Shown here: positions 925 through 20,030 of the stretch, one piece after another
Numbering within the stretch: the stretch's first letter is position 1
Layout: each line of letters begins with the position of its first letter
Source: Lytechinus pictus
Lineage: Eukaryota
DNA: 64,000 nt
Reading direction: 5' to 3'
Assembly (NCBI RefSeq): GCF_037042905.1
Contig: NC_087245.1
Location: forward strand, 5,334,001-5,398,000
The notes under the pieces: model-generated
Told to the model about the DNA's origin: nothing
Databases searched by the model: none
Seen by the model: the letters and a program-made list of their open reading frames with translations, nothing else
Made by a program: the position numbers and the translations under genes

Positions 925-1030
925 TTAGCAGTAGCTTGAATCCCCGGATCTGGATGTTTGGATATCACATATCATTTGTGCCTGACATGATGCATCACAC
1001 GGACCTGCGTCGTACTGGCGATGAAAAAAC
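925..1030 (-). CDS. SMPD1: SMPD1-like terminal coding exon ([34 protein letters not shown])
   Basis: ttttatag| acceptor, four C-terminal cysteines, TAA at 927-925, AATAAA (minus) at 897-892. Confidence 0.9.
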
Positions 1031-4000
1031 CTATAAAAGCAAAGACAAGATTGGAGTTATATGACTTTACTTCTTTGAAACTATGATCCATTTTATTAAA
1101 TAGATTTTCATTGTTGTTCCTTTCCCAATTAACGCAATGACCAAGGGAAACAAATTGTATACAATAAAGACCTGTCATTGGCGAAATGAGCCAAAAAAGG
1201 TACTATTTTTTTTTTTAGATTTTGACATAACATTCAGAAAACAATATCATATATCACCTCTCTTTCCCATTTCTCTTTTTTTTTTTTTTGGGGGGGGGGG
1301 CGCTTGCCCACACCCCGTCTGTACACCACTGATGTATCTTTGGTTTCAGCAAGTAATATTGACATGTAATCCGTTCATGGTTGAATTGTTATTATTATCA
1401 TAATGAATTTGATTCTATTATGATAAGTTATCCTCCTCATCATTATCATCATCATTATCATCGTTGTTATTATCCTTATTGCTGTTTTTGTTATTCCATG
1501 CCACCCATTAACGTCAGAGTGGATGCCTCTTGAATATTTATTACTGGGAAGAATATATCCCAAGAAACTAACATAATTCACACAGGATTTAACATTTTGA
1601 TCATGCATATTTACAAAATATTTATACAAATACGATAACTAGAAAATGTTCATTAAGAGCAAAGAAATCCAGTACGATTTCTTACTTTTTAATTGACATG
1701 AAATCACTCTTAAAACTTCGTGCCAAAAGTCACCATTGATTGATAAAAATTACTTTCAAATAGAGCACTGTCGCAAATGGCATGAACAACTCTATATGCT
1801 TTTTTCTCCCCCCCCCCTTCCACAATTCACCCCTTTCAAGCGATCTCTTTCATACCTGTAATATTGATTGAAAATCGTAGTATTTGACTTCATTTCATCG
1901 ACAACTCTGTTCCATTCACTGGGTTGCAATGATGTCATGTTAAAGGCATTCTGAAACAAACCAGTACAACTTGATAAACATATTTGTTCAGTTAAAACAT
2001 TTTCTGCATTCAATAAAACGATACAAATTAATACATTATGAAAGAAAAACGCTTAAAAAATCCATATCATGGTTCCAAGTAATTACAAAAAAATCCCAGA
2101 TTTACCCGGAATGAAGTCTCAATATTTATTGATAATTATTTCTCAGAAGCAGTTCTATAGGTCAAATTTTTAATTTCAGTTCAAATAAACATTTATTTTC
2201 GTCTATTTGTCACAAAATATTATTGTTAAATATAAATTATACAAAATCATTTGCCATAATATAATATAAATATATAACATAACGTAGTTCCCTGAAAGCC
2301 AGAGCTTGTGACGGGATATGCCTATAACAGAATAAGGGATGGATGCTACTTCCTTTTTGCTTTTCAATGTAAATAAACATCTTCAAAGTAAGGTACTACA
2401 ATTTGTGAGGCTACATTAGAAAAATTGCCAGACATCCAACAGATGTTGTTTTGATATGCATAAAAACCAAAGTCTAACTTTTCCCCGATTTGAGGAAATT
2501 CCCTGGCTTTTCTCTGACTGGAAAAAGGTAAAATATTTTTTTCTCATTTACTTGATGGGCTTAAATCCGGATTATACTTCCAAATACTCACCCTTAAAAG
2601 TAAACAAAATAAATAAAAGTGTAAGGGAAATTATCTATTTCATTTTTTATACAATAATTTTTTTTATAACATATAATTTTCAAAGCAGGGGATCTTCATA
2701 GACTGGATGCATAATGTCGATGCGAAATAATCTAAGGTGTATAAAATTTTAATTTCATACCAAAGGAATTTCCAAGGAAATATTCGAATACATTAGTATA
2801 ATTGGAACAAAATAGAAATGTGTGGGAAATATATATTGAATGAATCAATTATAATTAAATGGAATTGCTAAAAGTCATAATCATGAGGAGAGTGCATGAC
2901 ATGATTATACCTTTGCATGGTACTCCATACGCCATATTGGTTTGTCAGTAAGGTTGGCTTCGGTGAGGTTGAGATAGTAGTTATCATGATCCAATACAGC
3001 CTGTTTATCAAATCATAGATAACACATTTCTAAATTGAGACTTTTTGATGAATAAATAAGTTAGGACGACAAGGGGAATATTAGCCAAGGAAAAAAGAGG
3101 TATTCATGATTGGAAATCATCTAGTCTACATGGACCTGATTCTGAATCTCATCAAGTCGAGCTGAAAAGACAAGAGACACACTGCGAACGCACTTTGAAC
3201 AAAATGAACACACTGTGAACACACTAAACACATTGTGAACACACTGAACACACTGTGAACACACTGAACACATTGTGAAAACACTGAACACACTGTAAAC
3301 ACACTGAACACACTGTGAACATACTGAACACACTGTGAACATACTGAACACGCTGTGAACATACTGAACACACTGAACAAATGTTAAAAAGTTGTGAACA
3401 CTCTGATTACATTTTGAACATACTGAACACACTGTATACGTACTGAACACACTGAACACATTGTAAACACACTGAACACACTGTGAACACAAACTGTAAA
3501 CACTGAGCACATTGTGAACGCACTGACCACACTGTAAACACACTGTGACCATACTTAACACACTGTGAACATACTGAACATACTGAACACACTATGAACA
3601 TACTGAACACACTGTGAACACACTGAACAAATTTTAAAAAAGTTGTGAACACACTGATTACATTTTGAACATACTGAACACACTGTATACGTACTGAACA
3701 CACTGAACACATTGTAAACACACTGAACACACTGTGAACACACACTGTGAACACACTGAGCACATTGTGAACACACTGAACACATTGTACACACACTGAA
3801 CACACAGAACAAATTGTAAACACTGAACACACTATGAACATACTGAACACTCTGTGAACATACTGAACACTCTGTGAACACACTGAACACATTGTAAACA
3901 CACTGAACACACTGTGAACACACTGAGCACATTGTAAACACACTGAACACATTGTGAACACACTGAACACATTGTGAACACACTGTGATCACACTGAACA

Positions 4001-7000
4001 TATTGTGAACACACTGACCACACTGTAAACACACTGTGACCATACCTAACACACTGTGAACATACTGAACACACTGTGACCATACCTAACACACTGTGAA
4101 CATACTGAACACACTGTGAACATACTGAACACACTGTGAACATACTGAACACACTGTAAACACACTGAACAAATTTTAAAAAAGTTGTGAACACAATGAT
4201 TACATTTTGAACATACTGAACACACTGTATACGTACTGAACACACTGAACACATTGTAAACACACTGAACACACTGTGAACACACACTGTGAACACACTG
4301 AGCACATTGTGAACACACTGAGCACATTGTGAACACACTGAACACATTGTACACACACTGAACACACTGAACACATTGTAAACACTGAACACACTATGAA
4401 CATACTGAACACTCTGTGAACATACTGAACACACTGAACACATTGTAAACACACTGAACACACTGTGAACACACTGAGCACATTGTAAACACACTGAGCA
4501 CACTGAACACATTGTGAACACACTGTGAACACACTGAACACATTGTGAACACACTGTGATCACACTGAACATATTGTGAACACACTGACCACACTGTAAA
4601 CACACTGTGACCATACCTAATACACTGTGAACATACTGAACACACTGTGAACATACTGAACACACTGTGAACATACTGAACACACTGTAAACACACTGAA
4701 CAAATTTTAAAAAAGTTGTGAACACAATGATTACATTTTGAACATACTGAACACACTGTATACGTACTGAACACACTGAACACATTGTAAACACACTGAA
4801 CACACTGTGAACACACACTGTGAACACACTGAGCACATTGTGAACACACTGAACACACTGAACACATTGTAAACACTGAACACACTATGAACATACTGAA
4901 CACTCTGTGAACATACTGAACACTCTGTGAACATACTGAACACAATGAACACATTGTAAACACACTGAACACACTGTGAACACATTGAGCACATTGTAAA
5001 CACACTGAACACACTGAACACATTGTGAACACACTGTGAACACCCTGAACACATTGTGAACACACTGTGATCACACTGAACATATTGTGAACACACTGAA
5101 CACACTGTAAATACACTGAGCACACTGTACAAACTGAACGCATTGTGAACATACTGAACACACTGTGAATATACTGAACACACTGTGAACATACTGAAAA
5201 CACTGTGAACACACTGAACACAATGTAAACACACTGTGAACACACACTGTGAACGCACTGAACACACTGAACACACTGCAAACGCACTCTGAACACACTA
5301 TGAATACACTGCACTGACGTGCAATGGGGAGGGTGGGATGGCTGCAAAGCTAGATGATCTGGAAGTCACCAAAACACTTTCGTCAAGACAAAAAGATAAG
5401 ATGTGATGTTGGATGAGATGTTTATCTTGATAAGAAGAAAAGAATACTGTATTTTTTTTGCTCAGTTTCATTTTTAAATGATTTTATCTTTTTGTTTTGG
5501 TGTCCAAATGAAGTCTGATCTTACTCAGGGTTAGGAGGAAGAAATGAAGGAAGGAAGGAAGGAAGGAAGGAAGGAAGGAAGAAAGGAAGGAAGGAAGGAA
5601 TGCAGGGGCGGATCCAGCTTTCGCCAATAGGGGGAGGGGGCTGCGGCCTATTCAGCCTCCCCTGGATCCACCAATAGAATGAATGAATGACTGTGACTGA
5701 ATATCTTAACATCTACTCTAGATATCAAAATCCAGTCCTACATTATTTTGTAAGAAAACGATTTAAAACTATTTGATTATCATAGCCATAATTTTGCTTA
5801 ATAAATCTATGGGAATTCATAATTTCTATTATATCTTTTGAATGTACCCATGTACAGTTCGTGTAGTTGCCATCAGCTGTGTAAACGCGATAGCCCGGAT
5901 TTTGTCCGCTCGGTGTAACAGCTCCCGCAATATAAACTACGCTGATTGGCCGATGGGAAGTGGCGTTCTCGTAAAAAAGTGTAAACTGGTCCTTATGCCT
6001 GTGGCCAAAGAACTGTCCCCGAATTGTGCTCTCGTATCTGGAATGGGGAATTCATGAAATGAGAAAGAAATATAAAGATCGAAATCGAGGCATAGGCCTA
6101 CCAAAGTTGAATTAGCATAGCTGCCATCGATGGTATAAACACGATAACCCGGGTATTGCGTATCGGGGGTAATAGCTCCTCCCACATACACCACGTTGAT
6201 TGGTCGGCGAGTTTTGACGTTTTCATAAAACAGGTGAAACTGATCGTGATGGGTGTGGCCAAAGAATTGTCCTCGAATAGTACTCTCGTATCTATGGGAG
6301 TAACGACATATAAACTATTGGGTTATCGTGATCACTCTTTCAAACCAACATCTCTGAATACAGAGAGCTTTTCTTTAAAACACACGGATTGATATTTTTA
6401 GACTGATTAAAAAACGTTCTAGAAATTCCTAATAAGCGTCTGCAAAATTTTACAAAGAGAAATTATAGAATTAGAATGTAAAGAGCAATCTATAACTGGC
6501 CCGACATAATTATGTTAATTTAACAAGAGTGATTCCCTATTTAACTGGATTAAGATACATTATAGACTGGTATGTGATTACAAATTAATAAGGCCTAATC
6601 TATGAGAGAATGGACTGGCTAATTCATCTAGAAGTATGTCAAATCTCGCCTCCTCTGAAAACACACGTCTTTCAGAATGTTTGACTAAGTGAGGTTCAAT
6701 CTGTTTGAATATCCCTTGATATTTATAGTGTAAATGTTTGATTTTTAAATCTAAAATTCTAACAATTTTCCAGCTTTCCTCACGCATAGAGACCTGGGGA
6801 GCGTTTCATGAAAAGACTTGTCAGACTTTTTATCCGACAGTTACCATAGGAACTGTCATCTTCAGCCAATCAAAATCAAGGAAGTTGTCAGATCTGACAA
6901 CTTGTCGGACAAAAATGTTGATGAAACACTCCCCTGTATGTGTTACGCGTCTGTTAAGAATTGTACTATTATTATCATCATTATAGGTAAAAAAAAAAAA

Positions 7001-9826
7001 AAAAAGGGGGGGTCCTAACACGTAAGCGTCTACAGGGCAAGAAGATATGAACGGCCTGTTACCTCTTGACAATAAGCTCGTAGTTCTTGCTCCATACTGG
7101 TAATGTACCACTTGGTGGAATGTGACCTAGAATGTGTACCTTCTCTCCCGCTGCCTCAGCTGCTTGAAGGACACCAATCAACCACTGTAATTGACCATCG
7201 GGATCAGTACCATTGATCTGTAACCACCTAAAACAGAATAATACAGGTGAATGCACTGTTGAAATAACAACAATAATAATAATAACAATAATAGCTAATA
7301 ATAATAACAATAATAATCATCATGAGATGTGAAAAAATGCGGATCTTTTTTACACGTTTGTAGATGATGATATGGGCTAGACTGGTGGGCTTGGCGTATA
7401 TTGAAATTTCAAATACACAACAGTTCATAGATTAATTTAATAGACCTATCACACTAATCAGCCACTGTCTTTGAGGGTAGTGAACACATTGATCTTTAAA
7501 CGGTCACTATCAGAAAGTTACATGTTATGCTGTTGGGAATTTATCGTCAATTAGCAGGTTCAACTAACCGTCTTGGACGTCTACAAGAAATCTCAGATTG
7601 CACCAATAATTTATACCAATATCTGCATATCTGTTTTCTGATTTATTACTACAATTCTTGTAAAATAATCAAGCAGCAAACCAAACATCTTTATGCTTCA
7701 TGTATGCATTCACAGAGATAACATTAACTTATTACTGATAAATTATTCATGTATCATTTGCTTTATTGAATATAGGATATGGCATTACCAATTCATTGGG
7801 TTTCCAGCATTCGAGTTAAGTGACACAACACGAAGACCCGGATACACAAGGACATCGTAATAACCACCACTGGAGTGAACAAAACAATGGAAAATGAAAT
7901 ATAAGATTATTTCTTAATCAATACTTCTCATTAAAAAAAATTTATTGGGCCAAATTTGAATGAATAGTTCATGACAAGGAAGCTCGTAACAAGAAAGTTT
8001 GATGTTCTTACCGTTGAATATTTGCACGTGTTGCATTAGGCAGCCAACCAGCTTTATCTATCCAATTATGAGCCATAGTGTTATATAACCAAGTCTCTGA
8101 TTGGTCACCTTTTATGACGTCAGTAGGTGGAAAGCTGGAAGAAAAGCGATTGTTTACAAGTAATGTGTAAACCTAAAAACACCCATGAATGCGTCTACAC
8201 AGTTTCAATAAGTTTTAATAATGTTGCTGCTGCTGATGATGATGATAATAATAATGATGATAATAATAATAATACTATAAACAATAATAACAACAACAAT
8301 AGTAAAGATTATAATGATAATAATACTGATAATAAATATTGCTTTCTGACAGAACATGGAAAGCGCAACTATATATAGCGAAAGATACCACTCATTGCAC
8401 TCAAGGAAGTAATCCTACCGGACACACATTTGCCTCACCTGGAAAGGGAGAGCGATGGCTTAAATGGAAAGGAATCAAACAAGGTGAAAGTAAAGATCTC
8501 CACAATTATGCTTATGGAATGACCAGACAGAATGATAACGTAACATTCAAATAAATGATGTTGCACAGATATCTGAAGTATTCTTAAAACTCATCTAATC
8601 ATTGCCGGACTTTCCGCGAACTTCTGAAGATGAAACTGATCTTCGGTTTACAAGCTGCTGCTTTATTAGGCCACCCTTTCCCTTTCGACGGTTCATTCTG
8701 GTTCTTTTTATTGTCATATCTGAAATAAACCTAAATCAATAATATAATCATGATTATTTCACTATATTATTTTAAGAAGGCTACTAGTCTTTGTCACCTG
8801 TTTACGGGGGCACTTTCATGATTGCCAAGAGCCCCATAAACTTTGACCCCTGGGAAATATTTCAGGAAAAGATCGGTGACGAGGTTAAAAATACCAATGT
8901 TGTCGGATCGAGTCTGATTCCAAACATCATGGGCAGGAAGATCACCTGTCATGTAAATCATATCGAGCTGAAAAAAAAAGAAAACAATAAAAATATCAGT
9001 ATAACCTTTGATCATGGATGGTGCATGGAGTTGGAAGGTGCTAGTGAATTATGTGTTTGATAATGTCAGGTTCATTCAGTAAAAGATACGCATTTCAACT
9101 TTTCAACAATAACGATTAAAAATCATTTTGACTCTTCGTTTTATAAGAACTATATATATATACAGTATATATATACTAACTAACATACTCATGCGACGCC
9201 AAAGGGGGCGTATACTTTGTGTATGTAATTTGATGTGCATAAAATTATCTTATATGTACAACATTCTAAATTCATTAAAATAATCTACTGAAGATAACAT
9301 GATTGTGTAGTTGACGGACATTATGGGAACAAATTATATAAATGCAACAATCTAGACGATTGTTATGATTATTTCATACCTTTTGTGTCTTTGATATTTC
9401 TTGGAGAGTATTAATCATGAGTTTCAGAGAAGCATCACAACCTCGCAAGTCTCCCCATTTACCAGCTCCAGGAACGCCGGGGGCTATATCGATGACGAAC
9501 GAGGGAGAGGCGATAAATTGAGGTAGATGAAAAGTGAGAGAAAATATGAATATTTAAGTGATGGTAGTAGCAGGGGCACTAGCGTATCTACGGGGGGGGG
9601 GGGAAGGAGGGGCACTCTGCCCCCCCCTGACGAGTCACAACCAAAATACGTATCTTTGCCCCACCTGACGGGCTTGAAAAATCTTTTTGCCCCCCCCCCC
9701 CTGGCGAGCTTGAAGACCTTTATATTGCCCCCCTGACGAGCTTGAAGACCTTTTTTTTTTTTTTTTTTTTTTTTTTGCTTGTCAATTTTTTTCTGGTACG
9801 GATTCCTTTATTTGTGATCGAAGACC

Positions 9827-9857
<31 letters not shown>

Positions 9858-10032
9858 TGTCAAATTTTTGGCGGACGGTTTTGCCCCCCCCCCCCTGTGG
9901 AAAATCCTAGGTACGCCACTGAGCAGGGGTGTAGTAGAAGTAGTGTAGTAGGCCTAGTAGTATTTGTTGCTGCATCGCAGGATAAGTAGTGGTTGCAGTA
10001 GTATGAGTATAATGTAGTAGTAGTAGTAGTAT

Positions 10033-10068
<36 letters not shown>

Positions 10069-10153
10069 GAGTAGTAGTAGTAGCAGTAATAGTCATAGTA
10101 GTAATAGTAATAGTAGTAGTAGTAGTAGCAGCAGCAGCAGTGGGAGTAGTAGG

Positions 10154-10218
<65 letters not shown>

Positions 10219-10234
10219 AAGAAGTAGTTGTAGT

Positions 10235-10285
<51 letters not shown>

Positions 10286-10309
10286 TAGTAGTAGCAGAAG
10301 AATAAGAAA

Positions 10310-10345
<36 letters not shown>

Positions 10346-10380
10346 CAGTAGCAGCAGCAGTAGCAGCAGCAACAGTAGTT

Positions 10381-10413
<33 letters not shown>

Positions 10414-13400
10414 TTTTGTTAATTAACTTGGACCGTTTTTGTTCCAAGTTATCTCTTTTGAAGTGTTACCATTGTTGAGTGGCCAGCATATTCATGTATG
10501 TCTGGCGTCCAAATTGTGAAGAGTTTAGTAACCGAAATGAAAGGCGTCGTATCAAAGGAAGAGGTACAAATGAAGATGATAAATATAAAGAACAATGATG
10601 ATGGTGGTTAGCTACCTGGGGGACCATCGTTGGATCTGCAGCATATCGGTTCCCCACAATCTGTGTTTGACCCAACCTCATACATCCGATCTATGTGAAG
10701 ATCACTGATGTGAAGAATACGCAGAGTTGGTGAACCTTGCTGAGAAAGAAATAAGGAGGGGGTTGAAATTAGAGGATCTATAGAGGAGGACGAAGTGGAT
10801 TTTGATAACGATGATCATGATTCTCACGTTGATATCGGTGACGGTGATATGCCTATACTGTTGATGAAATTGTGGTGATGAGGATGATGATGCGGAGGAG
10901 GAGGATGCTGAGTATGATGCTGCTGCTGATGATGACGATAATGGTGATGATGACCATGATGATGACCATGATGATGATGATGATGATGATAAAGACGATG
11001 ATGATGATGATGACGATGATGATGATGAGGAGGAGGAGGATGAGGAGGAAGAGGATGATGATGATGATGATGACGATGATGATGGCGACGATGATGATCG
11101 ATAATTTGGATCGGAGGTGAACATTTAGATTATGATGAGGATGATGATGACGAAGAAAATGAAAGAATTGAGGAGAATGATGATGAAAATGACAATGATT
11201 AAGATGATTTCATTCAATAAACATATCAGGTTGCATATTTTAAATGTAGAAAATTAGAAAAACATATCATTGAAGGATTGTAATCAAAAACAAAAAAAAA
11301 CAATCACTAGCAGAGTAATTAATTTTCGAAGATCAAAAATTTAGGCGTCAGATCCCACAATTTCAAAAACAAAATTGAAAATGAATTTTTTTCTGCAGTT
11401 TAGCAGATTGTTTCATGAAACGTGTATGTCTTTATCATGTTTATACCGATTTTTGTAATTTCACATAATGCTCGGTAAATTTAAATGTTTTTTCTCAGTG
11501 TTAATAACTGTTTTATTGTCTCTAGGTACGTCTTATAGACAGATCAAAATAACATAACGAAAGACCAGGTTTTCAACAGATTTTGTTTGATTTATTTCAC
11601 TTGAAATACAATAATCTCTGGGTTTTTTTAAGAATAAGATTATCCCAGTCATATTGTCTGTTAAAAAAGAGACAACTCCATGATTGTCTTAAGAATTGTG
11701 CAATAAATTGCAATGGTTCTCGAGACTCCGCTGCATGCAGGCATTTTTATGTTTAAATAAGACACTATCTAATACTGACTACATGTAGCCCATTAGGTTA
11801 AGTTTAATATGACAAAAATTATCATTTCTTAATGGTTTGTGGTTAGAACTATAATTCTTTAGAATAGAAGCAGTTGTATTAACATTTTAATGCGGAGGTA
11901 AACTCATTTCCAATTGTCTGTCATTTTATGAAATGATTTTACCTGAAAACTGACACATTGATATGTTCGAATGTGGCGTCACAAAATAGAAACCTCAAGC
12001 ATCCATGACACAAAGTATTAATTTCTTTCAATTATGTGTTTTATTAGGAAATCAATAACAAATCACAAAATTTACAAACAATTTGTCTGATTGGTAAAAG
12101 ATTTTTTTTTTAAAGATAAATTTCGTCTTACCTTTGGTGGATTCACAGGAGTGACTGGTGGTTTGGGGATACTTGGAAACGTCACATTCCAATCTGCGTT
12201 TGGGTCATAGGTCACTGCGCATGACTCTCCAAGCAGAGTGCCACAAACTTGATCTGGGCTCAAGTAATGTAAGGTCGCCACATCGATTACCTCTTCCTGC
12301 ATGTGCAGAATTTTGTATTAAAAAAAATAATATAACTGTGAGTTTGGCTCTGAAGGAAAATGAAGACAATGAATATTCATTCAGCGCATCATAGATATTT
12401 TTTGATGGGTGAGCAGATATCAAGTGATGTAGTAATTTTCGAAAGCAAATTGATAACAAAAATCTAATGGGAAAGTATTACCCGATTCACCTATTAATTC
12501 CAGAAACATATTTTCATAGATATCAGAGGGGTACTGATGCTTGTACAGAAAAAAAATCACAAAATTAATAGATTTTTTGTGTGTGAAGGATCTTTTTCCT
12601 TTATTTGGAATAAATTAAGTGCCTCTCTGAAATTCTATGATATTTACGTAGTTTGTTTTGAGAGTGTAATTAGACAGTTGGTGAAGTTGCATGATACCAA
12701 CCTAGGGTTGCGACTGGGTATAAGGGCGACGATTTATTTCCTTTAATTATAAAGTACGTTCCCGGATTCCGTTACTCGACCACAGTTTATGAAAAAACAA
12801 TAATGATAATAATGATGACAATAATAATGATAATAATAATAATGATAATAATGATATAATAACAACAATAATAATGATTTGTAAAAAAAAAACAAAGGGC
12901 AGATTCCACTCGCCGTAATTAGTCAGGTGCCATAAGTAAAAATAGCAACTTTTATCAGAATAGTTTCGATTATAAAAGCTTAAGCATTCACCTGATATTT
13001 CATTAATGATTGACTAAGAGGGTCTGAAACTGATAATAAACTCATAATTAGTTTCGGTTGCAATATGATAATTCAAATGATACAGAGAAAATGATGAGGG
13101 GCCATTAATGGAGACTTATAGGACTTGGAAAGCTGCAGTCTATCTTGGAACACAGTCGTACTATCATGTTTAATCATACATGTCAAATATGCTTTAAGTT
13201 AATTGGAGTTTTGATGGCGAGAAAGAAGAAAGTAAGACAAGTGCTAAATTAAGGGAAAATGGGAAGAATAGAAACGATTATATAAAGTATGAAGGACGTG
13301 CAGATAAAAAGTAAGTGAGAGGGGAAAACAACATGAACAGATTAGTGCATTAAGGTCTTCTTATAATGCCAGTTCAATGCATTTGAATTTGAATTTTTTA

Positions 13401-16400
13401 CAAATTTGAAGAAAAGAGAATTAAAGGAAACCAAGAGAAGACACATCAACAAGAAGGAAAATGACTGATTATAAAAAGAAGAAAAAGAAAAAAAGGATAA
13501 GAGCAACATGAAGCAGAATGGCAAAGATAAGAGCAAGTGATATTAAAGGATTTTTGGCGAATTTCGTGAAATGTTTTAATAAAAATGAAAGTTTTCAAAA
13601 CTTCTGTGGGTCAGCTCGAATTTTGTCCTCCCAGAATGTAAATTGGGTATACTGGTTGCGTATATACTTGTAGAATAATAATTATTTTATTTTGTTACAG
13701 ATTCTTGTATGAAAATATGAAATAAATAATTCATGTATAATAAGAAAAAGGACATGACAACATCAACCCATCTATAACGTATTAATGACGGAAATCATAT
13801 ATCAGTTTTTAAAAAATATTGCCAAACTTTGAAATTCAATAATTCATAATTTCTTCATCATTTTGTTGTAATGTTTTACGCTTTTCTCGTTTAACTTAGC
13901 TATATTGATTTATTTTCAGCCTGTAAGACACCCACCTGAAATTCTCTGACGACTAGATCACACACACGGTCATCCTCGATCTTCAGGATCTTACAAACCT
14001 CGCCTGAGATTTCAACAATGAGGTCACGTGATATATCAGACTGGATTAGGACATCGATGACGGCCACGATTTCCTTGCAGAGATCACAGCCGATGTCGAG
14101 ATGGTAGATAGATGCTGACTCTCGTATGATGTTATCCCTGTTTCATAAAAAAATGGAATCGACTTGTCACTTGTGTTCCTTTCCCAATGTTTAGATATTC
14201 TTTATTTAAATTGGTGTTTCACATTCCGTTCATTATCTTCTTTAATTATTACACATAGTCATCAGGGAACAACAGACTGAATTACCACGATGTATCTCCT
14301 CATTTTTTTATTTAAATTTATTCTGTTTATCGATCTCTTCTCAGCGTATTTTCACTTTCTCGTACAGTATATGAATTTTCTTTCTTTTTGTAATTTTATA
14401 TACTTTCTAAACTTTTCTAGCAATAATCAGTCAAGGATTTGTCGTACGCCATGATCATAATCTTATCCTATATCATTTTAGACAATGAAGAGTTTATCTA
14501 TATCTTGCTTATCGTCATCAATAGCAACAATTATATTATTATAATCACTTACTGTTGTCTTCAACACGATTAGGCCTACATTTTGAGCTCTAATTGATAA
14601 GTAACTTGGTCGGCACAGTTTGTGTGATCGCCACGTATAGCAATTAGTCTTATTTCTAGATAGACTATCCGTTTGGTCTCATATCATACACTGTTTAAAA
14701 AAAAATGATTTTACAGAAAAAAAATAAGATTTTGCAGAAAGCAATAACAGAATCATTCTGTAAATTCATAAAACAGGAAATTTTCTGCAATTTAACAGAA
14801 CAGGTCTGTTTAAAAAGGGGAAAATGGTGTTTTCTTTAAGGAAATTTGTAAGGTTCCATACACCAAATACCAATTTCCTGTAAGATTACGCAATCTGGTA
14901 AGATTTCAGGTGTTCTCGAGACTCTGCTGCAGGAACTTCTTTTTTATTTTAAGGATAAATTTTCTAACAGTGTAGGTACCACTTAGTCTAAAGGCCTCCA
15001 TGATTCGTTGAACTGCTTATGGTCCAAATTTTCATTTGACAAAGTGCGAAAATTTAAGGAGACGATATTGAAATTATACAAGACTGAATGACAGTTAGGT
15101 CAAGTGAGTGTTAGACCAAGTGACGGTTTAACATAAATGGCAATTGGACCAAATGGATCTAGTAGTAGTAGTAGTAGTAGTAATCTCAATAATGTCTCAA
15201 TAATTTCACATCATTTGCTTTGCTTTTAAGCCTGTGTTTTATTGATGATTGTATCTTCTTTTACTTGCCATATACTTTGAGATTACTAAATAGGTTCATT
15301 ATTGCCTATTGTTCCCGCGTTCGTGCGTACGGTCCTGGGGATTGGTATAAATAGACTACGTTATCAGATAATTTCCGCCACTTGATAAAGAGTTGCAGCG
15401 GCACTCGAAAGCTCGTGAACTTGTAATAGTCCAGTCAATCTAGCCAGAATAGGGGGGTAACCCACCACTAATTGCAACACGAGATATTCCACTGAAATGC
15501 TTTCCAGGAAGGTCCCCTAAACAACATACTAAAAGTCCCAAGAAATCCAAGCAGTGGAAATTTATGAAATTTGCATATTATGCAAATTAGCCATGAAAAA
15601 TTAGAAAAAGAAGGGAAATAATCCAAAGATTACAAATGAAATGTCCAAAATAATTTGGTTTGAATGGAAATTCATGATAAATAACTGAATTCAATGTTTT
15701 CAATCAAAAGTGCATAAATTTCTACCTCATTTGCATATTATGCAAATAAGCATCCTTATATGGAAAAAATGTCAAGATATTGTGATTTTTCTCATATAGA
15801 CTACTTGAAAACATTTCATTAATGTTGACATTAATATGCTACTATATCACTAAGCATGAGAATTCATCCCAATGCCTGAAAATTAATTTGCATATTATGC
15901 AAATTAGCCATTAAAAAAAATAGAAAATGAGGAAATTAATCCAAAGATTACAAATTAAATGTCCACAGCAAGTAATTTTGAACATGATGAATAAATAAGT
16001 TCACTGTCTTTATTTAAAATAACTAGCAAATCTGCCTCATTTGCATATTATGCAAATAAGTATCCTTATATGGAAAATGTCAAGAAATCTAGATTTTTAT
16101 CACATTGACTGCAGTAAAAACATTTAAGTTTTTCAAATTAATATGCTGCTATCACTAAGCATTCAAATCTATCCTAATATGATTTATATTCAAGGAAAAA
16201 TACTGGAAATATGTTTTTCGCTTCCTAAGCGTTAGTCTGACAAGATGATGGGATTGGCAAGAACAAAGCACAGTATTTGAATTGGTGTGTAGTTTGTTAG
16301 AGTTGACAACCCTTTCTTATATGGATGGGAACGACTTAGACTTTCTTGAAATTTCACTGCATAAACATGATAAAGGGAGGCCAGGAAAAGCAAACTTATG

Positions 16401-19400
16401 GCAGGTAAGATCTGATGAGTAGTCTCATTAAGAAGTGCAGCAGATATTCCGTCTGGCCTAGTAGCTTCATGCAGGTTGTTTTCTTTAACAATTTCTTCAG
16501 TAGTCTGGCTACAACTGCTTGACTAAACAATATGTTATCTGGCCATATCTGGGTCAGGACTGGGTCCCAGGACTTGTATCGTCATCCTCATCATGATCAG
16601 TGGTGAATACTAAGACTAAAAATCTTTGCTTTCCTTTAATAATGATATTCCAATGTAGTCATAGCTATTGATATTAAGGGCTCCCAACATGCTAATTGTT
16701 ACAGCCTGGATCATTGTCAATCCGGTCAACAAATTATGTATTATAAGCTTGTCTACAAACCCTCTTATGGTCCTCTTTAATGCATTGTAGCAATTCTGAG
16801 CTTTACCTTACTGATGCTTTTGGAGCTCTAAAATGTGCAAGCCTTCCTAGACTTTCTCTAAAACACTTGACATCTTCCGACACAACTTATGTCCATTCCC
16901 TCATTGAGGCAACTTGTGTCGGAAGAAGACATGGTTAACGATGTGTTCTTGTTCAAGTCCTCTTGATTGGCATTCAGTCTCCTATGCTCGACTTGTCGGA
17001 TTTCAGTACAGAGAGTTGTATGATTGTCCAAAGTACATCTGCATGACACTATTAAAGTCAGCATTCCTCCAGAAGAACATCCTTAGTCGTACCATAAAAT
17101 GTTTATTCCTCTGGATAACCTCACAGTATACCCATGAGTAGCACATTGTGGCAAATAAATCTTGGAAGTGGTACACACTGTCTAATCAATGTTGGATGGT
17201 ATTTGATGGTGATGTTAAGGGTGTTCCATTATGTTGTGTCCTCTTGTTGGAAAGGCAATAATCTGGCTTAGTTCTCCATCTGGTTTGTTCATTGTCTCAC
17301 TGAGGAATTTTTGTTTACCATAAATATCAGGAAATTAATATTATTATTTGCATACGACTTACTTAGAAACTATAGCTTTAATATTTGGAGATGGTTGCCA
17401 TAGGAGATTTATCAAAGAGGAGAGAACAGAAAATGGATGCTTCATCATGAAGCAGCAACTGGATTCAGCAAGAACGTCTAATTACGATTTCTGTATCTGA
17501 GAAAGATGCCTATAATGCACTTTAAGCCTTCATCATAAATTTATGAATGGCTTTCATGTCGCTCGTATAGGCAAATGCCCATTGTTACTCTTATTAAGCA
17601 TGCCCAGAGATCTTGTGATCCAAGCAAGTACTCATATTCACCACCAAGACAAGTGATGATGATGATGATGATGGGTTCTTGTAAAGCGTCGGTATACGCC
17701 TCAGCTGGGCGCTCATGGCGCTTGCTCAAAAATAGGAAATATCTCACAAATTTCAATGTCTTCAAACAGTGCTTAGGATCATCATTCAGTTCAAGTACTG
17801 TCCTAGTAATGCTACAATTGAGTTATTCTTGTCTTGGGATAATGTTGGAGTGGGGAACAGAAAGGTCTTCAGGTAAGACTCAAAAGTTGATTGGGTCTCT
17901 GCTCTCCTGATAAATTGGGGAAGGCTATTCCACAGCTTTGGTCCAGAGATGTAGAAGGCTCTGTCACCCCAGGTTGTGTGGCTGAGAGATTCCCTCAGCA
18001 ATGCTTGAGCTGCTGATCTGAGACTGCGTGTTGGTCTATGCTGAGATAAAAGCTCTGAGATGTAGGGTGGAGATTTATCGTTAAGCGCTGTAAATACAAG
18101 GATCCCAAGTTTATAAGCTAATTGGTGTGCTACAAGGACCAAATATTCGAAGCTAATGGGCTTTTATTTGTACGGGTGTGACATCTTGTGCTGATCACTT
18201 GGCAATCCAGGAGTTGCTAGCGTGGACTATACTCGCAAGAAACACAAAGTCTCTACAAAGTCAAGAAGATAGCAAGACTTGGATAGAAATAATGAAACAT
18301 TCAAGCAGTGGGATCCATGTAGAATTGACTCATCATTGTACAATATGAGTGGGGTAACTGCTCGTGACAAAACTCAATATCAACCAAGCAAGAAGTGTAG
18401 GGAAGGTCATCATGGTTAATACACATAATCTACATGGAATTTTAGAGGAAAGTATCACTTATGTGTTTCCTTGAATATTTATAACATGTCGGATGCTTAT
18501 TTGCATAATATGTAAATTACACTTCAGTTATTAAGCTGATTATTAATGTATTTGCCATTCTTAGTGATCAAATCATATTGATCTAGACTGAAATGTTTTC
18601 ATACTGAAATGTTTTCATAACTGTTTTTGTGAGAAAAATCAAAATTTTTGGATTTTTCCATATAAAGATGCTCATATATATGCAAATGAGGTAGATTTAT
18701 TTACGATTTTTTATTTAAAACATAAATAAATTTGTAAAACTTGTCATGGGCTTCAGTTCAATTTGTATTGATTGCACTTGATTTCCAATATTTGGATTAT
18801 TTTCCTTATTTGTAATTTATTATGGCTAATTTGCATAAAATGCAAATTTTGTGATTTTCCCATATGCTTGTATATTTAAGGACTTTTAATATGGTGTTTA
18901 GGAAACCTTCCTGTAAGGTATTGCCATATTCCAATTTCTACTTGCAATTTTTGAGGGATGTATCACCAGTGTGTTTTCTTGAATATTTATAACATGTTAG
19001 ATACTTTTATTTGCATAATATGCAAATTACACTACAGACACTAAGCTGAATACAAATGTATTCAACGTCCTTAGTGATAGCAGCATGTAAATTCCAACAT
19101 TAATGAAATTTTCAAGCAGATAATGAGAGAAAAATCACAATACCTACACATTTTTCCATATAAGGATAGTTATTTGCATATTATGCAAATGAGGTAGATT
19201 TTTTTGCACTTTTGACAAAAAACATTGAATACAGTTATTTATCATGAATTTTTGCTCAAATTAAATTGTTTTGGACACTCAATTTGTAATCTTTGGGCTA
19301 TTTTCCTTATTTTTCTTACTTTTTATGGCTAATTTGCATAATATGCAAATTTCATAAATTTCCACTGCTTGGATTTCTTGGGACTTTTAGTATGTTGTTT

Positions 19401-20030
19401 AGGGGACCTTCCTTGAAAGCATTGCAGTGGAATATCTCGTGTTGCAATTAGTGGTGGGTCAAATCCTATATTGACTGGACTATAAGCTAGTGAACACTTT
19501 TTGCGAGAGTGATCACGAATTTCCTAGAAAGCTAGTGAACACTTTTTGCGAGAGTGATCACGAATTTCCTTGTTGACCATAGTAGATTGCGAGACAAATG
19601 AATACCCTCTAGCGATTACTTTAAGATTGTTCCACATGTATTTATGATTACATTTATGCCTATGTTCTGATTATGATGTTGTATTGTTATGCTATGTACA
19701 TTGTCTTACGGATACATGTGAGACCAACTTATACTGTTGAATGGGATTCCCTGGGTTTTTTTTAATAGGTAAATAATGATTTAGAAAAAAAAAGCTAACT
19801 CACATGTACGCATTAGAATCTTGAAGCTTTATAGTACTTTGGGTAAGAGATGCATTACTGAATTCGACAAGAAGAGGGGCAATCCTGTGAGCGAAGTAAG
19901 TACTAGCCTCCTTCCCGAGCTGATCCTCGTATTTCATTGATGAGATCGGTATGGACTTCGTAGAGCCGATGATCATGACGAAGATACATAGTGGATATAT
20001 AAGATTTAGGTTGATTCCTTTGCTAGCCAT
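925..20030 (-). CDS. SMPD1: Acid sphingomyelinase / sphingomyelin phosphodiesterase (SMPD1-like), multi-exon gene, 613 aa
   Basis: Hand-spliced exons (minus): 20030-19804, 14137-13936, 12296-12132, 10739-10616, 9483-9380, 8967-8798, 8134-8012, 7869-7789, 7227-7063, [6291-6102 OR 6037-5848], 3000-2911, 1950-1856, 1030-925. All introns are GT..AG with matching phases; total 1842 nt. Motifs: hydrophobic signal peptide, saposin-B cysteines, Pro-rich linker, [23 protein letters not shown], GHxH, NPGYR-like, C-terminal CxxxC...C...C. Confidence 0.93.
1856..1950 (-). CDS. SMPD1: SMPD1-like coding exon 12 ([31 protein letters not shown])
   Basis: gtttcag| and AG|GTATGA. Confidence 0.92.
2911..3000 (-). 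CDS. SMPD1: SMPD1-like coding exon 11 ([30 protein letters not shown])
   Basis: aaacag| and AAG|GTATAA; VLDH..Y.LNLT.AN signature. Confidence 0.94.
3175..5315. repeat. Minisatellite of ACACTGAAC/ACACTGTGAAC units with higher-order blocks
   Basis: About 2.1 kb of 9-11-nt variants; a landmark (AAA..AAAGTTGTGAAC..GATTACATTTTGAAC..GTATACGTAC) recurs near 3380, 3630, 4171 and 4702. Confidence 0.97.
5537..5600. repeat. (GGAA)n microsatellite, followed by a ~75-bp G/C-run mini inverted-repeat element (5603-5676)
   Basis: Direct inspection; GGGGCGGATCCAG...CTGGATCCACC. Confidence 0.85.
5848..6037 (-). CDS. SMPD1: SMPD1-like exon 10B (alternative duplicate): [63 protein letters not shown]
   Basis: 190 nt, cattccag| acceptor, TGG|GTACAT donor (same donor as SDR exon 1 in this window), open frame, same phases as 10A. 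Confidence 0.85.
6102..6291 (-). CDS. SMPD1: SMPD1-like exon 10A (alternative): [63 protein letters not shown]
   Basis: 190 nt, cccatag| acceptor, TTG|GTAGGC donor, open frame, GHTH metal motif. Confidence 0.92.
6797..6933. mobile_element. MITE, PIF/Harbinger-like (CWG target)
   Basis: TIRs GGGAGCGTTTCATGAA / TTGATGAAACACTCCC, flanked by CTG on both sides. Confidence 0.7.
7063..7227 (-). CDS. SMPD1: SMPD1-like coding exon 9 ([16 protein letters not shown]...[10 protein letters not shown]...)
   Basis: ttttag| and AG|GTAACA; DP..QLQWL and GHIPP motifs. Confidence 0.95.
7789..7869 (-). CDS. SMPD1: SMPD1-like coding exon 8 ([26 protein letters not shown])
   Basis: ctccag| and TG|GTAATG; GGYY...PGLR..SLN signature. 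Confidence 0.93.
8012..8134 (-). CDS. SMPD1: SMPD1-like coding exon 7 ([24 protein letters not shown]...WLP...)
   Basis: cttccag| and CG|GTAAGA; phase-consistent. Confidence 0.93.
8798..8967 (-). CDS. SMPD1: SMPD1-like coding exon 6 ([16 protein letters not shown]...[12 protein letters not shown])
   Basis: GD and GNHE catalytic motifs; ttttcag| and AG|GTGACA. Confidence 0.96.
9380..9483 (-). CDS. SMPD1: SMPD1-like coding exon 5 ([34 protein letters not shown])
   Basis: AGxWG..CD motif; tag| and AAG|GTATGA. Confidence 0.93.
9577..9921. mobile_element. Non-autonomous hAT-like MITE
   Basis: 8-bp TSD AGCAGGGG (9569-9576, 9922-9929); imperfect TIR CACTAGCGTATCTA / TAGGTACGCCACTG; subterminal G/C runs. 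Confidence 0.8.
9990..10412. repeat. (AGT)n microsatellite
   Basis: Direct inspection. Confidence 0.97.
10616..10739 (-). CDS. SMPD1: SMPD1-like coding exon 4 ([35 protein letters not shown])
   Basis: DxHxD metallophosphoesterase motif; tttctcag| and G|GTAGCT. Confidence 0.95.
10860..11200. repeat. (GAT/GAG)n microsatellite
   Basis: Direct inspection. Confidence 0.93.
12132..12296 (-). CDS. SMPD1: SMPD1-like coding exon 3 (end of saposin B plus Pro-rich linker)
   Basis: [26 protein letters not shown]...[20 protein letters not shown]; cag| and AAG|GTAAGA. Confidence 0.93.
13936..14137 (-). CDS. SMPD1: SMPD1-like coding exon 2 (saposin [10 protein letters not shown]...[21 protein letters not shown])
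   Basis: Acceptor aaacag|, donor CAG|GTGGGT; saposin cysteine spacing. Not in the ORF track. Confidence 0.92.
14689..14972. mobile_element. CACTA/EnSpm-like MITE
   Basis: TA|CACTGTT...AACAGTG|TA termini with 2-bp duplication. Confidence 0.65.
15379..15417 (+). ncRNA. Minimal type-I hammerhead ribozyme motif (U3-A8 variant), Penelope-like relic
   Basis: CAC-TTGATAA-A-GAGT(TGCAGCGGC)ACTC-GAAAG-CTC-GTG: stem I CAC/GTG, stem II GAGT/ACTC, palindromic AGCT stem III. Confidence 0.55.
15427..19482. mobile_element. Degenerate long-TIR (foldback) DNA transposon, Academ-like
   Basis: Termini TAGTCCAGTCAAT...ATTGACTGGACTA, TAA on both flanks (3-bp TSD), inverted arms alignable for at least ~430 bp with internal sub-duplications; no intact ORF. 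Superfamily call rests on TAG termini plus short TSD. Confidence 0.8.
17654..18140 (-). mobile_element. 5'-truncated L2/CR1-group LINE (ORF2 C-terminus, 3' UTR, (ATC)n tail) nested in the foldback element
   Basis: [23 protein letters not shown]...RSLRS...[19 protein letters not shown]....F...LKTFLF is the typical L2-clade ORF2 tail, followed by AAGCGC..GAG..CGCTTTACAAGAA and (ATC)n. Confidence 0.88.
19804..20030 (-). CDS. SMPD1: SMPD1-like coding exon 1 ([28 protein letters not shown]...; signal peptide)
   Basis: ATG at 20030 just after an acceptor (tttatctcag|20044); donor AT|GTGAGT; phase 2 fits the next exon. Confidence 0.8.

What the first reader, a model, noticed from the sequence alone, without database searches (positions are those of the whole stretch)
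5848..6291. Tandemly duplicated, mutually exclusive active-site exons in an acid sphingomyelinase
Seen: two consecutive 190-nt exons (10A 6291-6102, 10B 6037-5848). Each has its own AG acceptor and GT donor, the same entry phase (2) and exit phase (0), and no stop or indel. By hand alignment 44/63 residues are identical, and about 20 of those 44 codons differ synonymously. That pattern indicates an old duplication with both frames preserved, not an assembly duplicate or a decaying copy. Only this exon is doubled; flanking exons are single. Established: this segment carries the GHxH motif whose two histidines ligate the di-zinc centre of ASM-family enzymes. Inference: one gene makes two full-length 613-aa enzymes with swapped catalytic-pocket segments. 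I know of no described mutually exclusive exon pair in SMPD1-family genes, but could not search.
Basis: partly seen in the sequence, partly recalled or inferred. Interest (0 to 1): 0.9.

Follow-up and report, generated by a model that had tools for sequence, protein, structure and literature searches.

The report
Either-or catalytic exons in urchin sphingomyelinase
A sea urchin acid sphingomyelinase gene carries two old, intact copies of the exon that holds two of its zinc-binding histidines and puts one or the other into its mRNA, a real but ordinary kind of splice switch that public gene models already show although no paper I could find describes it.

Summary
Exons 6291-6102 and 6037-5848 (minus strand) are both 190 nt and have AG/GT borders. 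They share 44 of 63 residues, and 20 of the shared codons differ synonymously. Both match solved ASM structures over the same residues, E 1e-14 to 1e-16.

The window encodes, letter for letter, two NCBI-listed Lytechinus pictus models, "sphingomyelin phosphodiesterase-like" X1 and X2. Both are 613 aa and differ only in this exon. L. variegatus has the same pair.

RNA contigs of the window's species, from two studies, join exon 9 to A and, separately, to B. Introns have zero depth, and B makes up about 27-33% by k-mer depth. Including both exons, neither exon, or the 64-nt spacer gives early stops.

Selection is purifying. A versus B gives omega about 0.08 with synonymous sites saturated. Exon B between the two species has 5 synonymous and 2 replacement changes.

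Verdict: this is a genuine mutually exclusive exon pair made by an old, echinoid-internal tandem duplication. It is already in automatic annotation, but six literature searches found nothing in print (and 40 on structure). It is a new member of a known kind, of moderate interest. Whether the two enzymes differ in function is untested.

The parts
928..20030 (-). Coding part of the acid sphingomyelinase (SMPD1-like) gene. It has 13 coding exons per mRNA, and the tenth exists in two copies.
   Evidence: both 613-aa NCBI models (P0006 = X1, P0005 = X2) map exactly onto the minus strand in 13 blocks; both carry Metallophos (E 2e-15 to 2e-16) and ASMase_C (E 1e-17 to 9e-18).
7063..7228 (-). Exon 9, the constitutive exon whose donor at 7063 is joined to either copy of exon 10.
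   Evidence: mapping. joints 7063->6291 and 7063->6037, whose skipped parts end CT..AC on the + strand (GT..AG on the gene's strand).
6102..6291 (-). Exon 10A (190 nt, 63 codons plus 1 base). It has the GHTHHD motif and one N-x-S/T sequon. It is the major form in the RNA laid.
   Evidence: a 240-nt contig with no differing letters, depth 48.2 (X1) and 28.9 (X15); in X22, 33 reads (21 starts) across the 9->A joint.
6038..6101 (-). 64-nt spacer intron between the two copies. It is the shortest intron of the gene by far and is probably too short to be removed.
   Evidence: 64 nt against 142-5666 nt for the other 12 introns; branch-point-like yTnAy sites lie only 29, 42 and 47 nt from the donor; depth 0 in X1 and X15, but retained in a contig of X3 and in reads of X22 (a related species). 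No 6102->6037 joint is among the 15 joints listed.
5848..6037 (-). Exon 10B (190 nt). It has the GHRHKD motif, three N-x-S/T sequons and one extra cysteine. It is the minor form.
   Evidence: a 240-nt contig with no differing letters, depth 17.8 (X1) and 14.1 (X15), joined to 7063; identical to the exon in L. pictus isoform X2.
2911..3000 (-). Exon 11, the constitutive exon that follows either copy (start of the ASMase_C region).
   Evidence: mapping. ASMase_C hit, E 3e-5.

Best explanation
This is a pair of mutually exclusive exons in the single acid sphingomyelinase (SMPD1-like) gene of a Lytechinus sea urchin. The window matches the L. pictus models exactly. An old tandem duplication of exon 10, inside the echinoid lineage, left two 190-nt copies 64 nt apart. 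Each mRNA takes one copy: exon 9 (donor 7063) is spliced to A or to B, and the chosen copy is spliced to exon 11 (acceptor 3000). This gives two 613-aa enzymes that differ at 19 residues in positions 455-517.

Exclusivity is most likely enforced in two ways. First, the spacer is so short that a branch point for B's acceptor lies at most 47 nt from A's donor, so A cannot be spliced to B (inferred). Second, 190 is not a multiple of 3, so including both copies, neither copy, or the retained spacer runs into an early stop, and such RNAs should be unproductive (frames shown; decay inferred).

Both isoforms keep the two zinc-ligand histidines and the PGYRVY core, so both are probably active. They differ in four places:
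- beside the histidines (T/R and H/K);
- in the loop that in human ASM carries Y488 near the substrate (DTQY versus SGQN);
- in N-glycosylation sequons (1 in A, 3 in B, including the equivalent of human N503);
- in one extra cysteine in B.

The most likely consequence is two enzymes with different substrate or head-group handling, glycosylation or stability. That last step is inference only.
For: Anatomy.

Family: both exons hit ASM chains 5hqn, 5i81, 5jg8 and 5fi9 at the same residues, E 2.5e-14 to 1.9e-13 for A and 3.5e-16 to 4.7e-16 for B. SMPDL3A/B hits are much weaker. The full models carry Metallophos and ASMase_C.

Annotation: L. pictus X1 and X2 and L. variegatus X1/X3 and X2 carry A or B. 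X1 and X2 of L. pictus differ only at the 19 residues.

RNA: 6 runs of organism A, from 2 studies, hold 0.70-0.77 of the sampled words of 5848-6291. That is the share expected for both exons without the spacer. Of the 24 listed runs, 4 were laid. In X1 and X15, which show no differing letters in either exon, separate 240-nt contigs carry A and B. Each is joined to 7063 with GT..AG ends. Depth is 0 in the spacer and the flanking introns. The depth ratio gives B = 27% and 33%.

Frames: A alone and B alone are open. A+B, neither, and A+spacer+B all hit stops.

Selection: A versus B gives pS 0.73, pN 0.18, omega about 0.075. For window versus organism B, exon B has 5 synonymous and 2 replacement changes (omega about 0.11), and exon A has 1-3 synonymous and 0 replacement changes.

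Age: the tree puts A of Lytechinus with S. purpuratus (99/91) to the exclusion of B, inside an echinoid clade (99/95).

Spacer not spliced: it is retained in contig 17 of X3 and covered in X22, while the neighbouring introns have depth 0.

Structure context: H457/H459, Y488, R496, N503 and the beta7-beta8 loop, from passages of PMC5062611.
Against: They rest on the NCBI models and on unlaid contig ends.

The runs of organism A are labelled 'RNA?' or '?' by guess. That they are RNA is inferred from spliced joints and empty introns.

In the related organism B, the productive 9->B joint is weak: 0 contigs in X3, and 3 reads from 1 start in X22 against 33 reads for 9->A. Much of the exon B signal there comes with the retained spacer, a form that has an early stop in the window's sequence. 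So B may be rare or conditional in that species.

One search lists 15 joints and says 14 more are not shown, so a rare A->B joint cannot be excluded.

S. purpuratus (3 models) and Diadema (3 models) show no B-type isoform.

The AU test does not reject a Lytechinus-only duplication (lnL -9.05, p 0.166).

No protein-level or activity data exist here for either isoform.

The steric limit for sea urchin spliceosomes is not known to me.
Confidence: 0.85

Rival explanations
1. Exon B is mainly a regulatory or unproductive exon. Its use, especially together with A and the retained spacer, would make stop-containing RNAs that lower ASM output. The open 9-B-11 form would be a minor by-product with no role of its own.
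For: In organism B the exon B signal comes largely with the retained spacer (X3 contig 17; X22 spacer depth 2.4). The 9->B joint there has only 3 reads from 1 start. A+spacer+B has an early stop in the window's sequence.
Against: In the window's own species the spacer has depth 0, and B is joined directly to exon 9 at 27-33% of the total in two studies. B has kept an open frame, the metal ligands and the core motif. Omega is about 0.1 between species and about 0.08 against A, which a mere poison exon does not need. B scores at least as well as A against solved ASM chains.
Confidence: 0.08
2. Both isoforms are made and active but are functionally equivalent. The pair would be kept by chance or by dosage, with no division of labour.
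For: All catalytic-motif residues in the segment are shared. No expression difference between tissues or stages could be examined here, because the runs are coded and only 4 were laid.
Against: Synonymous sites between A and B are saturated while replacement sites are not, so both copies have been held for a long time. A redundant copy would be expected to decay. The differences are not scattered conservative swaps. They include T->R between the two zinc ligands, 3 of 4 residues of the Y488-equivalent loop, two added sequons and a new cysteine.
Confidence: 0.06
3. Assembly artefact, haplotype duplicate or decaying pseudo-exon.
For: None beyond the tandem arrangement itself.
Against: The copies are only 70% identical in DNA. 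Both are found in RNA contigs of two studies with no differing letters. Both are present in the models of a second species. There are no stops or indels.
Confidence: 0.01

Closest known systems
NCBI automatic models: L. pictus 'sphingomyelin phosphodiesterase-like' isoform X1 (XP_063966962.1) and X2 (XP_063967072.1); L. variegatus X1/X3 (XP_041480559.1, XP_041480574.1) and X2 (XP_041480568.1)
   Same: This is the same gene and the same exon pair. The window encodes L. pictus X1 and X2 exactly.
   Different: Nothing differs in sequence. The records are computed models without comment, and nothing in them says that the isoforms arise from duplicated, mutually exclusive exons or what the swap changes.
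Mammalian acid sphingomyelinase SMPD1 (solved structures 5i81, 5jg8, 5fi9, 5hqn; PMC5062611, PMC4961792)
   Same: Domain order, the di-zinc metallophosphatase core, the GHxH motif with both zinc-ligand histidines, the PGYR core motif, and a glycosylated Asn equivalent to N503, which B keeps.
   Different: The solved mammalian chains show one version of this segment. From recall, human SMPD1 has no duplicated exon and its known splice variants are inactive. PMC10499523 (passages) only cites differential SMPD1 splicing in sepsis. The urchin segment is one residue shorter at the Y488 position.
Mutually exclusive exons born by tandem exon duplication (criteria and atlas: Hatje et al. 2017, PMC5740500; OGDH exons 4a/4b, PMC7969005; alpha-tropomyosin exons 2/3, recalled)
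   Same: Neighbouring homologous exons of equal length and phase with their own splice sites. Joint inclusion breaks the frame; PMC5740500 passages report this for 20 of 28 validated orthologous cases. A short intervening intron places the branch point close to the upstream donor. For OGDH I saw only the abstract in the listing.
   Different: The gene family is new for this kind as far as my searches show. The steric limit has not been measured in echinoderms. No docking or selector RNA pairing was found.
Hyalella azteca KAA0194494.1 (partial hypothetical protein, 147 aa)
   Same: It contains two tandem copies of the homologous GHTH...NPGYR segment about 20 residues apart. This looks like a read-through of a similar exon pair with a short spacer.
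   Different: It is an arthropod, and the copies do not group with the urchin copies (echinoid clade 99/95), so the duplication would be independent. No DNA, splice sites or RNA could be examined, so this is only a lead.

Membership tests
Acid sphingomyelinase (SMPD1/ASM) family | Calcineurin-like metallophosphatase domain followed by the ASM C-terminal helical region | tested here: met
   P0005 and P0006 both pass the Pfam cut-offs for Metallophos (57.9 and 61.2 bits against 21.5) and ASMase_C (65.1 and 64.7 bits against 23.7).
Acid sphingomyelinase (SMPD1/ASM) family | GHxH motif supplying two zinc ligands (human H457, H459), in both exon copies | tested here: met
   GHTH in A and GHRH in B align to the GHTH of ASM chains. 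The ligand role comes from passages of PMC5062611.
Acid sphingomyelinase (SMPD1/ASM) family | N-terminal saposin B domain, which separates ASM from SMPDL3A/B | tested here: inconclusive
   the exon 2 translation hits SapB_1 at E 0.017, 15.6 bits, below the cut-off of 25.2. One search lists no saposin family at E <= 0.01 for the full models. The cysteine pattern is visible in the alignment but was not scored. The best solved matches are ASM, not SMPDL3A/B.
Acid sphingomyelinase (SMPD1/ASM) family | Hydrolysis of sphingomyelin at acid pH | not testable with these tools
   This needs an enzyme assay of both recombinant isoforms.
Mutually exclusive exons from tandem exon duplication | Adjacent exons with sequence homology, equal length, the same phase, open frames and their own splice sites | tested here: met
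   190 nt each, AG/GT borders, 44 of 63 residues identical, no stops.
Mutually exclusive exons from tandem exon duplication | Each copy is spliced to the shared upstream exon in RNA | tested here: met
   joints 7063->6291 and 7063->6037 in X1 and X15 (one contig each per run). In X22 there are 33 reads and 3 reads respectively.
Mutually exclusive exons from tandem exon duplication | Each copy is spliced to the shared downstream exon | tested here: inconclusive
   Exon 11 was left outside the laid stretch because a 2-kb tandem repeat lies between. Both 240-nt contigs run on for 28 unlaid letters at their downstream end. The NCBI models join both copies to 3000.
Mutually exclusive exons from tandem exon duplication | The copies are never, or only unproductively, included together | tested here: met
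   A+B, neither, and A+spacer+B all reach early stops; no 6102->6037 joint among the 15 listed (14 more not shown). The only joint form seen keeps the spacer (X3, X22) and is stop-containing in the window's sequence.

The most novel reading that the evidence does not exclude
The exon encoding the end of beta7, the beta7-beta8 loop and the following hairpin of acid sphingomyelinase may be a recurrent hot spot for enzyme diversification by exon duplication. Sea urchins would use an A/B switch to make two ASM enzymes from one gene. These would differ in head-group or substrate preference, or in glycosylation-dependent sorting between lysosome and secretion. Malacostracan crustaceans (the Hyalella model with two tandem copies, one of them close to a Homarus protein) would have arrived at the same solution independently.
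Probability: 0.2. Interest if true: 0.6.

Novelty: new member of a known kind. Interest (0 to 1): 0.4.

Why it matters
ASM sets ceramide levels in membrane repair, signalling and lysosomal lipid turnover. In mammals one polypeptide serves both lysosomal and secreted roles. An animal that encodes two alternative versions of the strand-loop unit next to the zinc site offers a natural experiment on which residues around H457/H459, Y488 and N503 tune substrate handling, glycosylation and stability.

L. pictus is a laboratory urchin in which isoform-specific perturbation is feasible. The case is also a clean example for testing the 'intron too short to splice' rule outside vertebrates and insects.

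As a kind, it is not surprising. Duplicated either-or exons are common in animals, and the isoforms already sit in public annotation.

Tried and rejected
1. Word-index protein searches with the single exons reached little. Exon B against longer proteins gave 1 hit among 6 candidates. Exon B against proteins of similar length gave none. Exon A against longer proteins gave 3 hits among 5 candidates, which did supply the named urchin models.

2. The look-up of sequencing runs listed no holder on record as RNA ('no RNA holder listed'). The RNA nature of X1 and X15 was inferred only after laying them.

3. Third, decayed exon copy: local alignments of A and B against 5300-5847, 6292-7062 and 2000-2910 scored 10-13, within the shuffled range of 11-21. 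The acceptor-like 'CCCATAG' 40 nt downstream of B, and direct repeat D7, are not followed by exon-like sequence.

4. Docking/selector RNA pairing: 4 inverted pairs were found in 5600-7100, of 12-19 nt and 74-92% complementary. None involves the 64-nt spacer, and there is no conservation data. I do not claim any of them.

5. Dating the duplication. The first AU tests, on a 'quick' tree, were invalid because the constrained trees scored better than the free tree. On the careful tree a Lytechinus-only duplication is 9.05 lnL worse but not rejected (p 0.166). The position of Diadema is unresolved. The tree used 29 rows: 8 urchin or Hyalella segments, P0001, and 20 of the 150 listed hits. I chose those 20 for full coverage of the segment, and they were found with exon B as query. 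P0013, P0014 and P0028 were left out as identical to rows kept.

6. Paralogue origin of B: the whole assembly has only the two matches.

7. Earlier notes of this scan: nothing for this place or sequence. The word search returned unrelated exon-pair cases in other genomes.

8. Single-exon Pfam scans were mostly below threshold.

9. I did not fold either isoform, because the tools return no coordinates from which exposure of the 19 sites could be read.
Full report
**What is there**

On the minus strand, 6291-6102 (A) and 6037-5848 (B) are two 190-nt segments. Each is preceded by AG and followed by GT. They are separated by 64 nt. Read from their second base, both give 63 residues without a stop.

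- 44 of 63 residues and 133 of 190 bases are identical.
- 24 codons are identical, 20 differ only synonymously and 19 change the residue.
- The repeat finder reports the pair on its own (D4, spacing 254).

**What gene it is**

Each exon alone matches solved acid sphingomyelinase chains (5hqn, 5i81, 5jg8, 5fi9) over the same chain residues. E is 2.5e-14 to 1.9e-13 for A and 3.5e-16 to 4.7e-16 for B. The ASM-like 3A/3B phosphodiesterases score far lower.

A word-index search with exon A found [quoted passage not shown] at 100% identity. Its 90% cluster holds 10 members. Among them are:

- L. pictus X1 and X2 (613 aa each);
- L. variegatus X1 and X2 (618 aa) and X3 (613 aa);
- three S. purpuratus isoforms.

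The alignment shows which exon each model carries:

| Model | Exon type |
|---|---|
| L. pictus X1, L. variegatus X1 and X3 | A |
| L. pictus X2, L. variegatus X2 | B |
| S. purpuratus, full-length and N-terminally short models | A only |
| Diadema, three models | one exon with mixed states |

Exact peptide mapping shows that the window encodes both L. pictus models letter for letter, in 13 coding blocks. The two models differ only in whether block 10 is 6290-6102 or 6036-5848. X1 and X2 differ at 19 residues, all within 455-517. Both pass the Pfam cut-offs for Metallophos and ASMase_C.

So the window is L. pictus, or an assembly indistinguishable from it at this gene. The either-or isoforms are already present in automatic public annotation.

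**RNA evidence**

The run search listed 24 runs.

- Six runs of coded organism A, from two studies, hold 0.70-0.77 of the sampled words of 5848-6291. That is what two 190-nt exons without the 64-nt spacer would give.
- Twelve runs of organism B, from five studies, hold 0.40-0.51.

I laid 4 of the 24 runs on 5740-7260. That stretch contains exon 9, A, the spacer and B. It leaves out exon 11, because a 2-kb tandem repeat lies in between.

In X1 and X15 (organism A) the picture is clean:

- Neither exon shows any differing letter.
- Exon A and exon B each sit on their own 240-nt contig.
- Each contig is joined to 7063 with GT..AG ends.
- Each runs on for 28 unlaid letters at its downstream end. 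This is the shape of a bubble between shared flanks.
- Depth is 0 in the spacer (bin 6046-6096) and in the flanking introns (5740-5841, 6301-6657). These data sets therefore hold spliced RNA and not genomic DNA, although their label is only a guess.
- Contig depths are 48.2 (A) against 17.8 (B) in X1, and 28.9 against 14.1 in X15. B is therefore about 27% and 33%.

Organism B differs from the window at 7 sites in exon B and at 1-3 sites in exon A. Two of the exon B changes are the amino-acid differences seen in the L. variegatus X2 model. The picture there is less clean.

- X3 has exon A joined to exon 9 in a 1712-nt contig.
- X3 carries exon B only on a 312-nt contig that runs through the spacer into the end of exon A.
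- The raw RNA reads of X22 give 33 reads (21 starts) for 9->A.
- They give only 3 reads (1 start, possibly copies of one molecule) for 9->B.
- In X22 the spacer has depth about 2.4, while the neighbouring introns have 0.

In that species and those samples, much of the exon B signal therefore comes from a form that keeps the spacer.

**Why only one copy per mRNA**

The frames were computed from the window.

- With A alone or B alone, the frame stays open through exons 11-12.
- With A+B, a stop comes 14 codons into B.
- With neither copy, a stop comes in exons 11/12.
- With A+spacer+B, a stop comes inside B.

The 452-aa S. purpuratus X3 model ends two residues after exon 9. That is what skipping of exon 10 would give, but this is an inference.

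The spacer is 64 nt. The gene's other introns are 142-5666 nt. Its only yTnAy branch-point candidates lie 29, 42 and 47 nt from A's donor.

In the classic cases this geometry blocks splicing between the two copies. Those cases are alpha-tropomyosin (recalled), the criterion described in passages of PMC5740500, and OGDH, for which I saw only the abstract in the listing.

Two observations fit an unspliceable spacer. The spacer is retained and not removed when both exons appear together (X3, X22). No 6102->6037 joint is among the 15 listed joints. However, 14 further joints were not shown, and the limit for urchin spliceosomes is unknown to me. I rate this mechanism likely but inferred. No convincing competing RNA pairing was found.

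**Selection and age**

Between A and B, the proportion of synonymous differences is 0.73, which is saturated. The proportion of replacement differences is 0.18, so omega is about 0.075.

Between the window and organism B:

- Exon B has 5 synonymous and 2 replacement changes (omega about 0.11).
- Exon A has 1-3 synonymous changes and no replacement change.

Both copies are under purifying selection, and the duplication is far older than the split of the two Lytechinus species.

I built a maximum-likelihood tree of the 63-residue segment. It has 29 rows, and the outgroups were found with exon B as query. The tree gives an echinoid clade (99/95). Inside it, A of Lytechinus groups with S. purpuratus (99/91), B of the two Lytechinus species group together (99/91), and Diadema is unresolved.

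B shares K (after the second histidine), N in the QNPGY motif, and the N-Y-T sequon with Diadema and with most outgroups. The A type of Lytechinus and S. purpuratus shares H, an aromatic residue, and S-Y-A at those places.

This points to a duplication before the Lytechinus/Strongylocentrotus split, with B lost or unannotated in S. purpuratus. The AU test, however, does not reject a Lytechinus-only origin (lnL -9.05, p 0.166).

The assembly holds no other copy, and there is no third decayed copy nearby.

**What the swap changes**

I anchored exon position 12 to human H457 and allowed for the one-residue gap that searches place at the Y488 position. The 19 differences then fall at human positions 458, 460, 464, 470-473, 477, 481, 482, 485, 489, 490, 492, 500, 503, 505, 507 and 509.

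Passages of PMC5062611 state the following about human ASM:

- H457 and H459 are the axial zinc ligands.
- Their conformation is constrained by the C-terminal domain.
- The beta7-beta8 loop is stabilised by that domain.
- Bound phosphocholine points its choline towards that domain.
- Y488 stacks on H282 and lies within 7 A of the zincs.
- R496 holds the core together.
- N503 carries a glycan.

Both urchin exons keep the histidines and the PGYR motif. They differ as follows:

- between and just after the histidines (T/R, H/K);
- in 3 of 4 residues of the Y488-equivalent loop (DTQY against SGQN);
- in sequons: A has one (NST at position 60); B has three (NAT at 24, NYT at 57, NCT at 60), and NYT is the N503 equivalent, which A has lost;
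- in a cysteine at position 61 that only B has.

An R between the two histidines also occurs in an unrelated full-length homologue (P0083), so it is tolerated in the family. B scores slightly better than A against solved ASM chains.

I infer that both isoforms are active and differ in substrate or head-group handling, glycosylation or stability. None of this was tested.

**Comparison with what is known**

As a kind, this is a textbook mutually exclusive exon pair from tandem exon duplication. It meets the sequence criteria and the upstream-junction test.

It is a member of the ASM family by domain content and motif. The saposin domain reached only sub-threshold scores here.

I searched the full-text library for:

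- 'mutually exclusive' + sphingomyelinase + exon: 64 papers, 20 listed, none relevant by title or abstract;
- 'mutually exclusive exons' + 'sphingomyelin phosphodiesterase': 1 paper, a zinc review;
- 'mutually exclusive exons' + 'sea urchin': 17 papers, 15 listed, none on this gene;
- SMPD1 + 'mutually exclusive exons': 4 papers, none on such a pair by title or abstract. I read passages of only one, PMC10499523, which just cites splicing changes in sepsis.

So I found no description in print, but subscription journals and supplements were not covered.

**A lead beyond urchins**

The exhaustive search with exon B gave 621 hits at E <= 0.001, of which 150 were listed. One of them is a 147-aa partial model of the amphipod Hyalella azteca (KAA0194494.1). 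It contains two tandem copies of the homologous segment about 20 residues apart.

Its first copy groups with a Homarus americanus protein (92/58; name). Neither copy groups with the urchin exons. This may be an independent duplication of the same exon in crustaceans. I could not examine its DNA or RNA.

**Verdict**

- The feature is real, old and expressed.
- It is already visible in public automatic annotation and belongs to a common kind, so its novelty is modest.
- The open and more interesting questions are whether the two enzymes differ in function and whether this exon is a recurrent target of duplication.

Noticed in passing
window 3120-5365 (intron between exon 10B and exon 11): About 2.2 kb of imperfect tandem repeat with alternating 9- and 11-nt spacing (units like CACTGAACA / CACTGTGAACA). 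It gives long spurious open frames on the minus strand.
   Followed up: no
window 6760-6963 (intron 9): A stretch of about 200 nt has k-mer depths of thousands to tens of thousands in all four runs laid, with many variants, loose ends and internal joints. It behaves as a dispersed, transcribed repeat family sitting in the intron.
   Followed up: no
window 5528-5618: A (GGAA)n-type microsatellite lies downstream of exon 10B (family D3).
   Followed up: no
window 9860-10465 and 10700-11210: Long low-complexity trinucleotide-type tracts lie in introns 3-4. They translate as runs of L, T, S, H or D in several frames.
   Followed up: no
P0016 (Hyalella azteca KAA0194494.1), not in the window: This partial amphipod model has two tandem copies of the homologous ASM segment about 20 residues apart. 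Copy 1 groups with a Homarus americanus ASM-like protein. It is a possible independent exon pair in crustaceans.
   Followed up: partly
P0011 (S. purpuratus isoform X3), not in the window: This 452-aa model ends two residues after exon 9. That fits a transcript that skips exon 10 and shifts the frame, as the 'neither' form does in the window.
   Followed up: partly
window 5847-6122 in run X3; spacer bin 6046-6096 in run X22: In the related organism B the 64-nt spacer is retained between A and B, while the neighbouring introns have no depth. The contig shows 8 gaps against the window, so the spacer length may differ in that species.
   Followed up: partly
window 7149, 7154, 7194 (exon 9): The RNA contigs of organism A differ from the window at three exon 9 sites while matching exons A and B perfectly. 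These are probably ordinary polymorphism.
   Followed up: no
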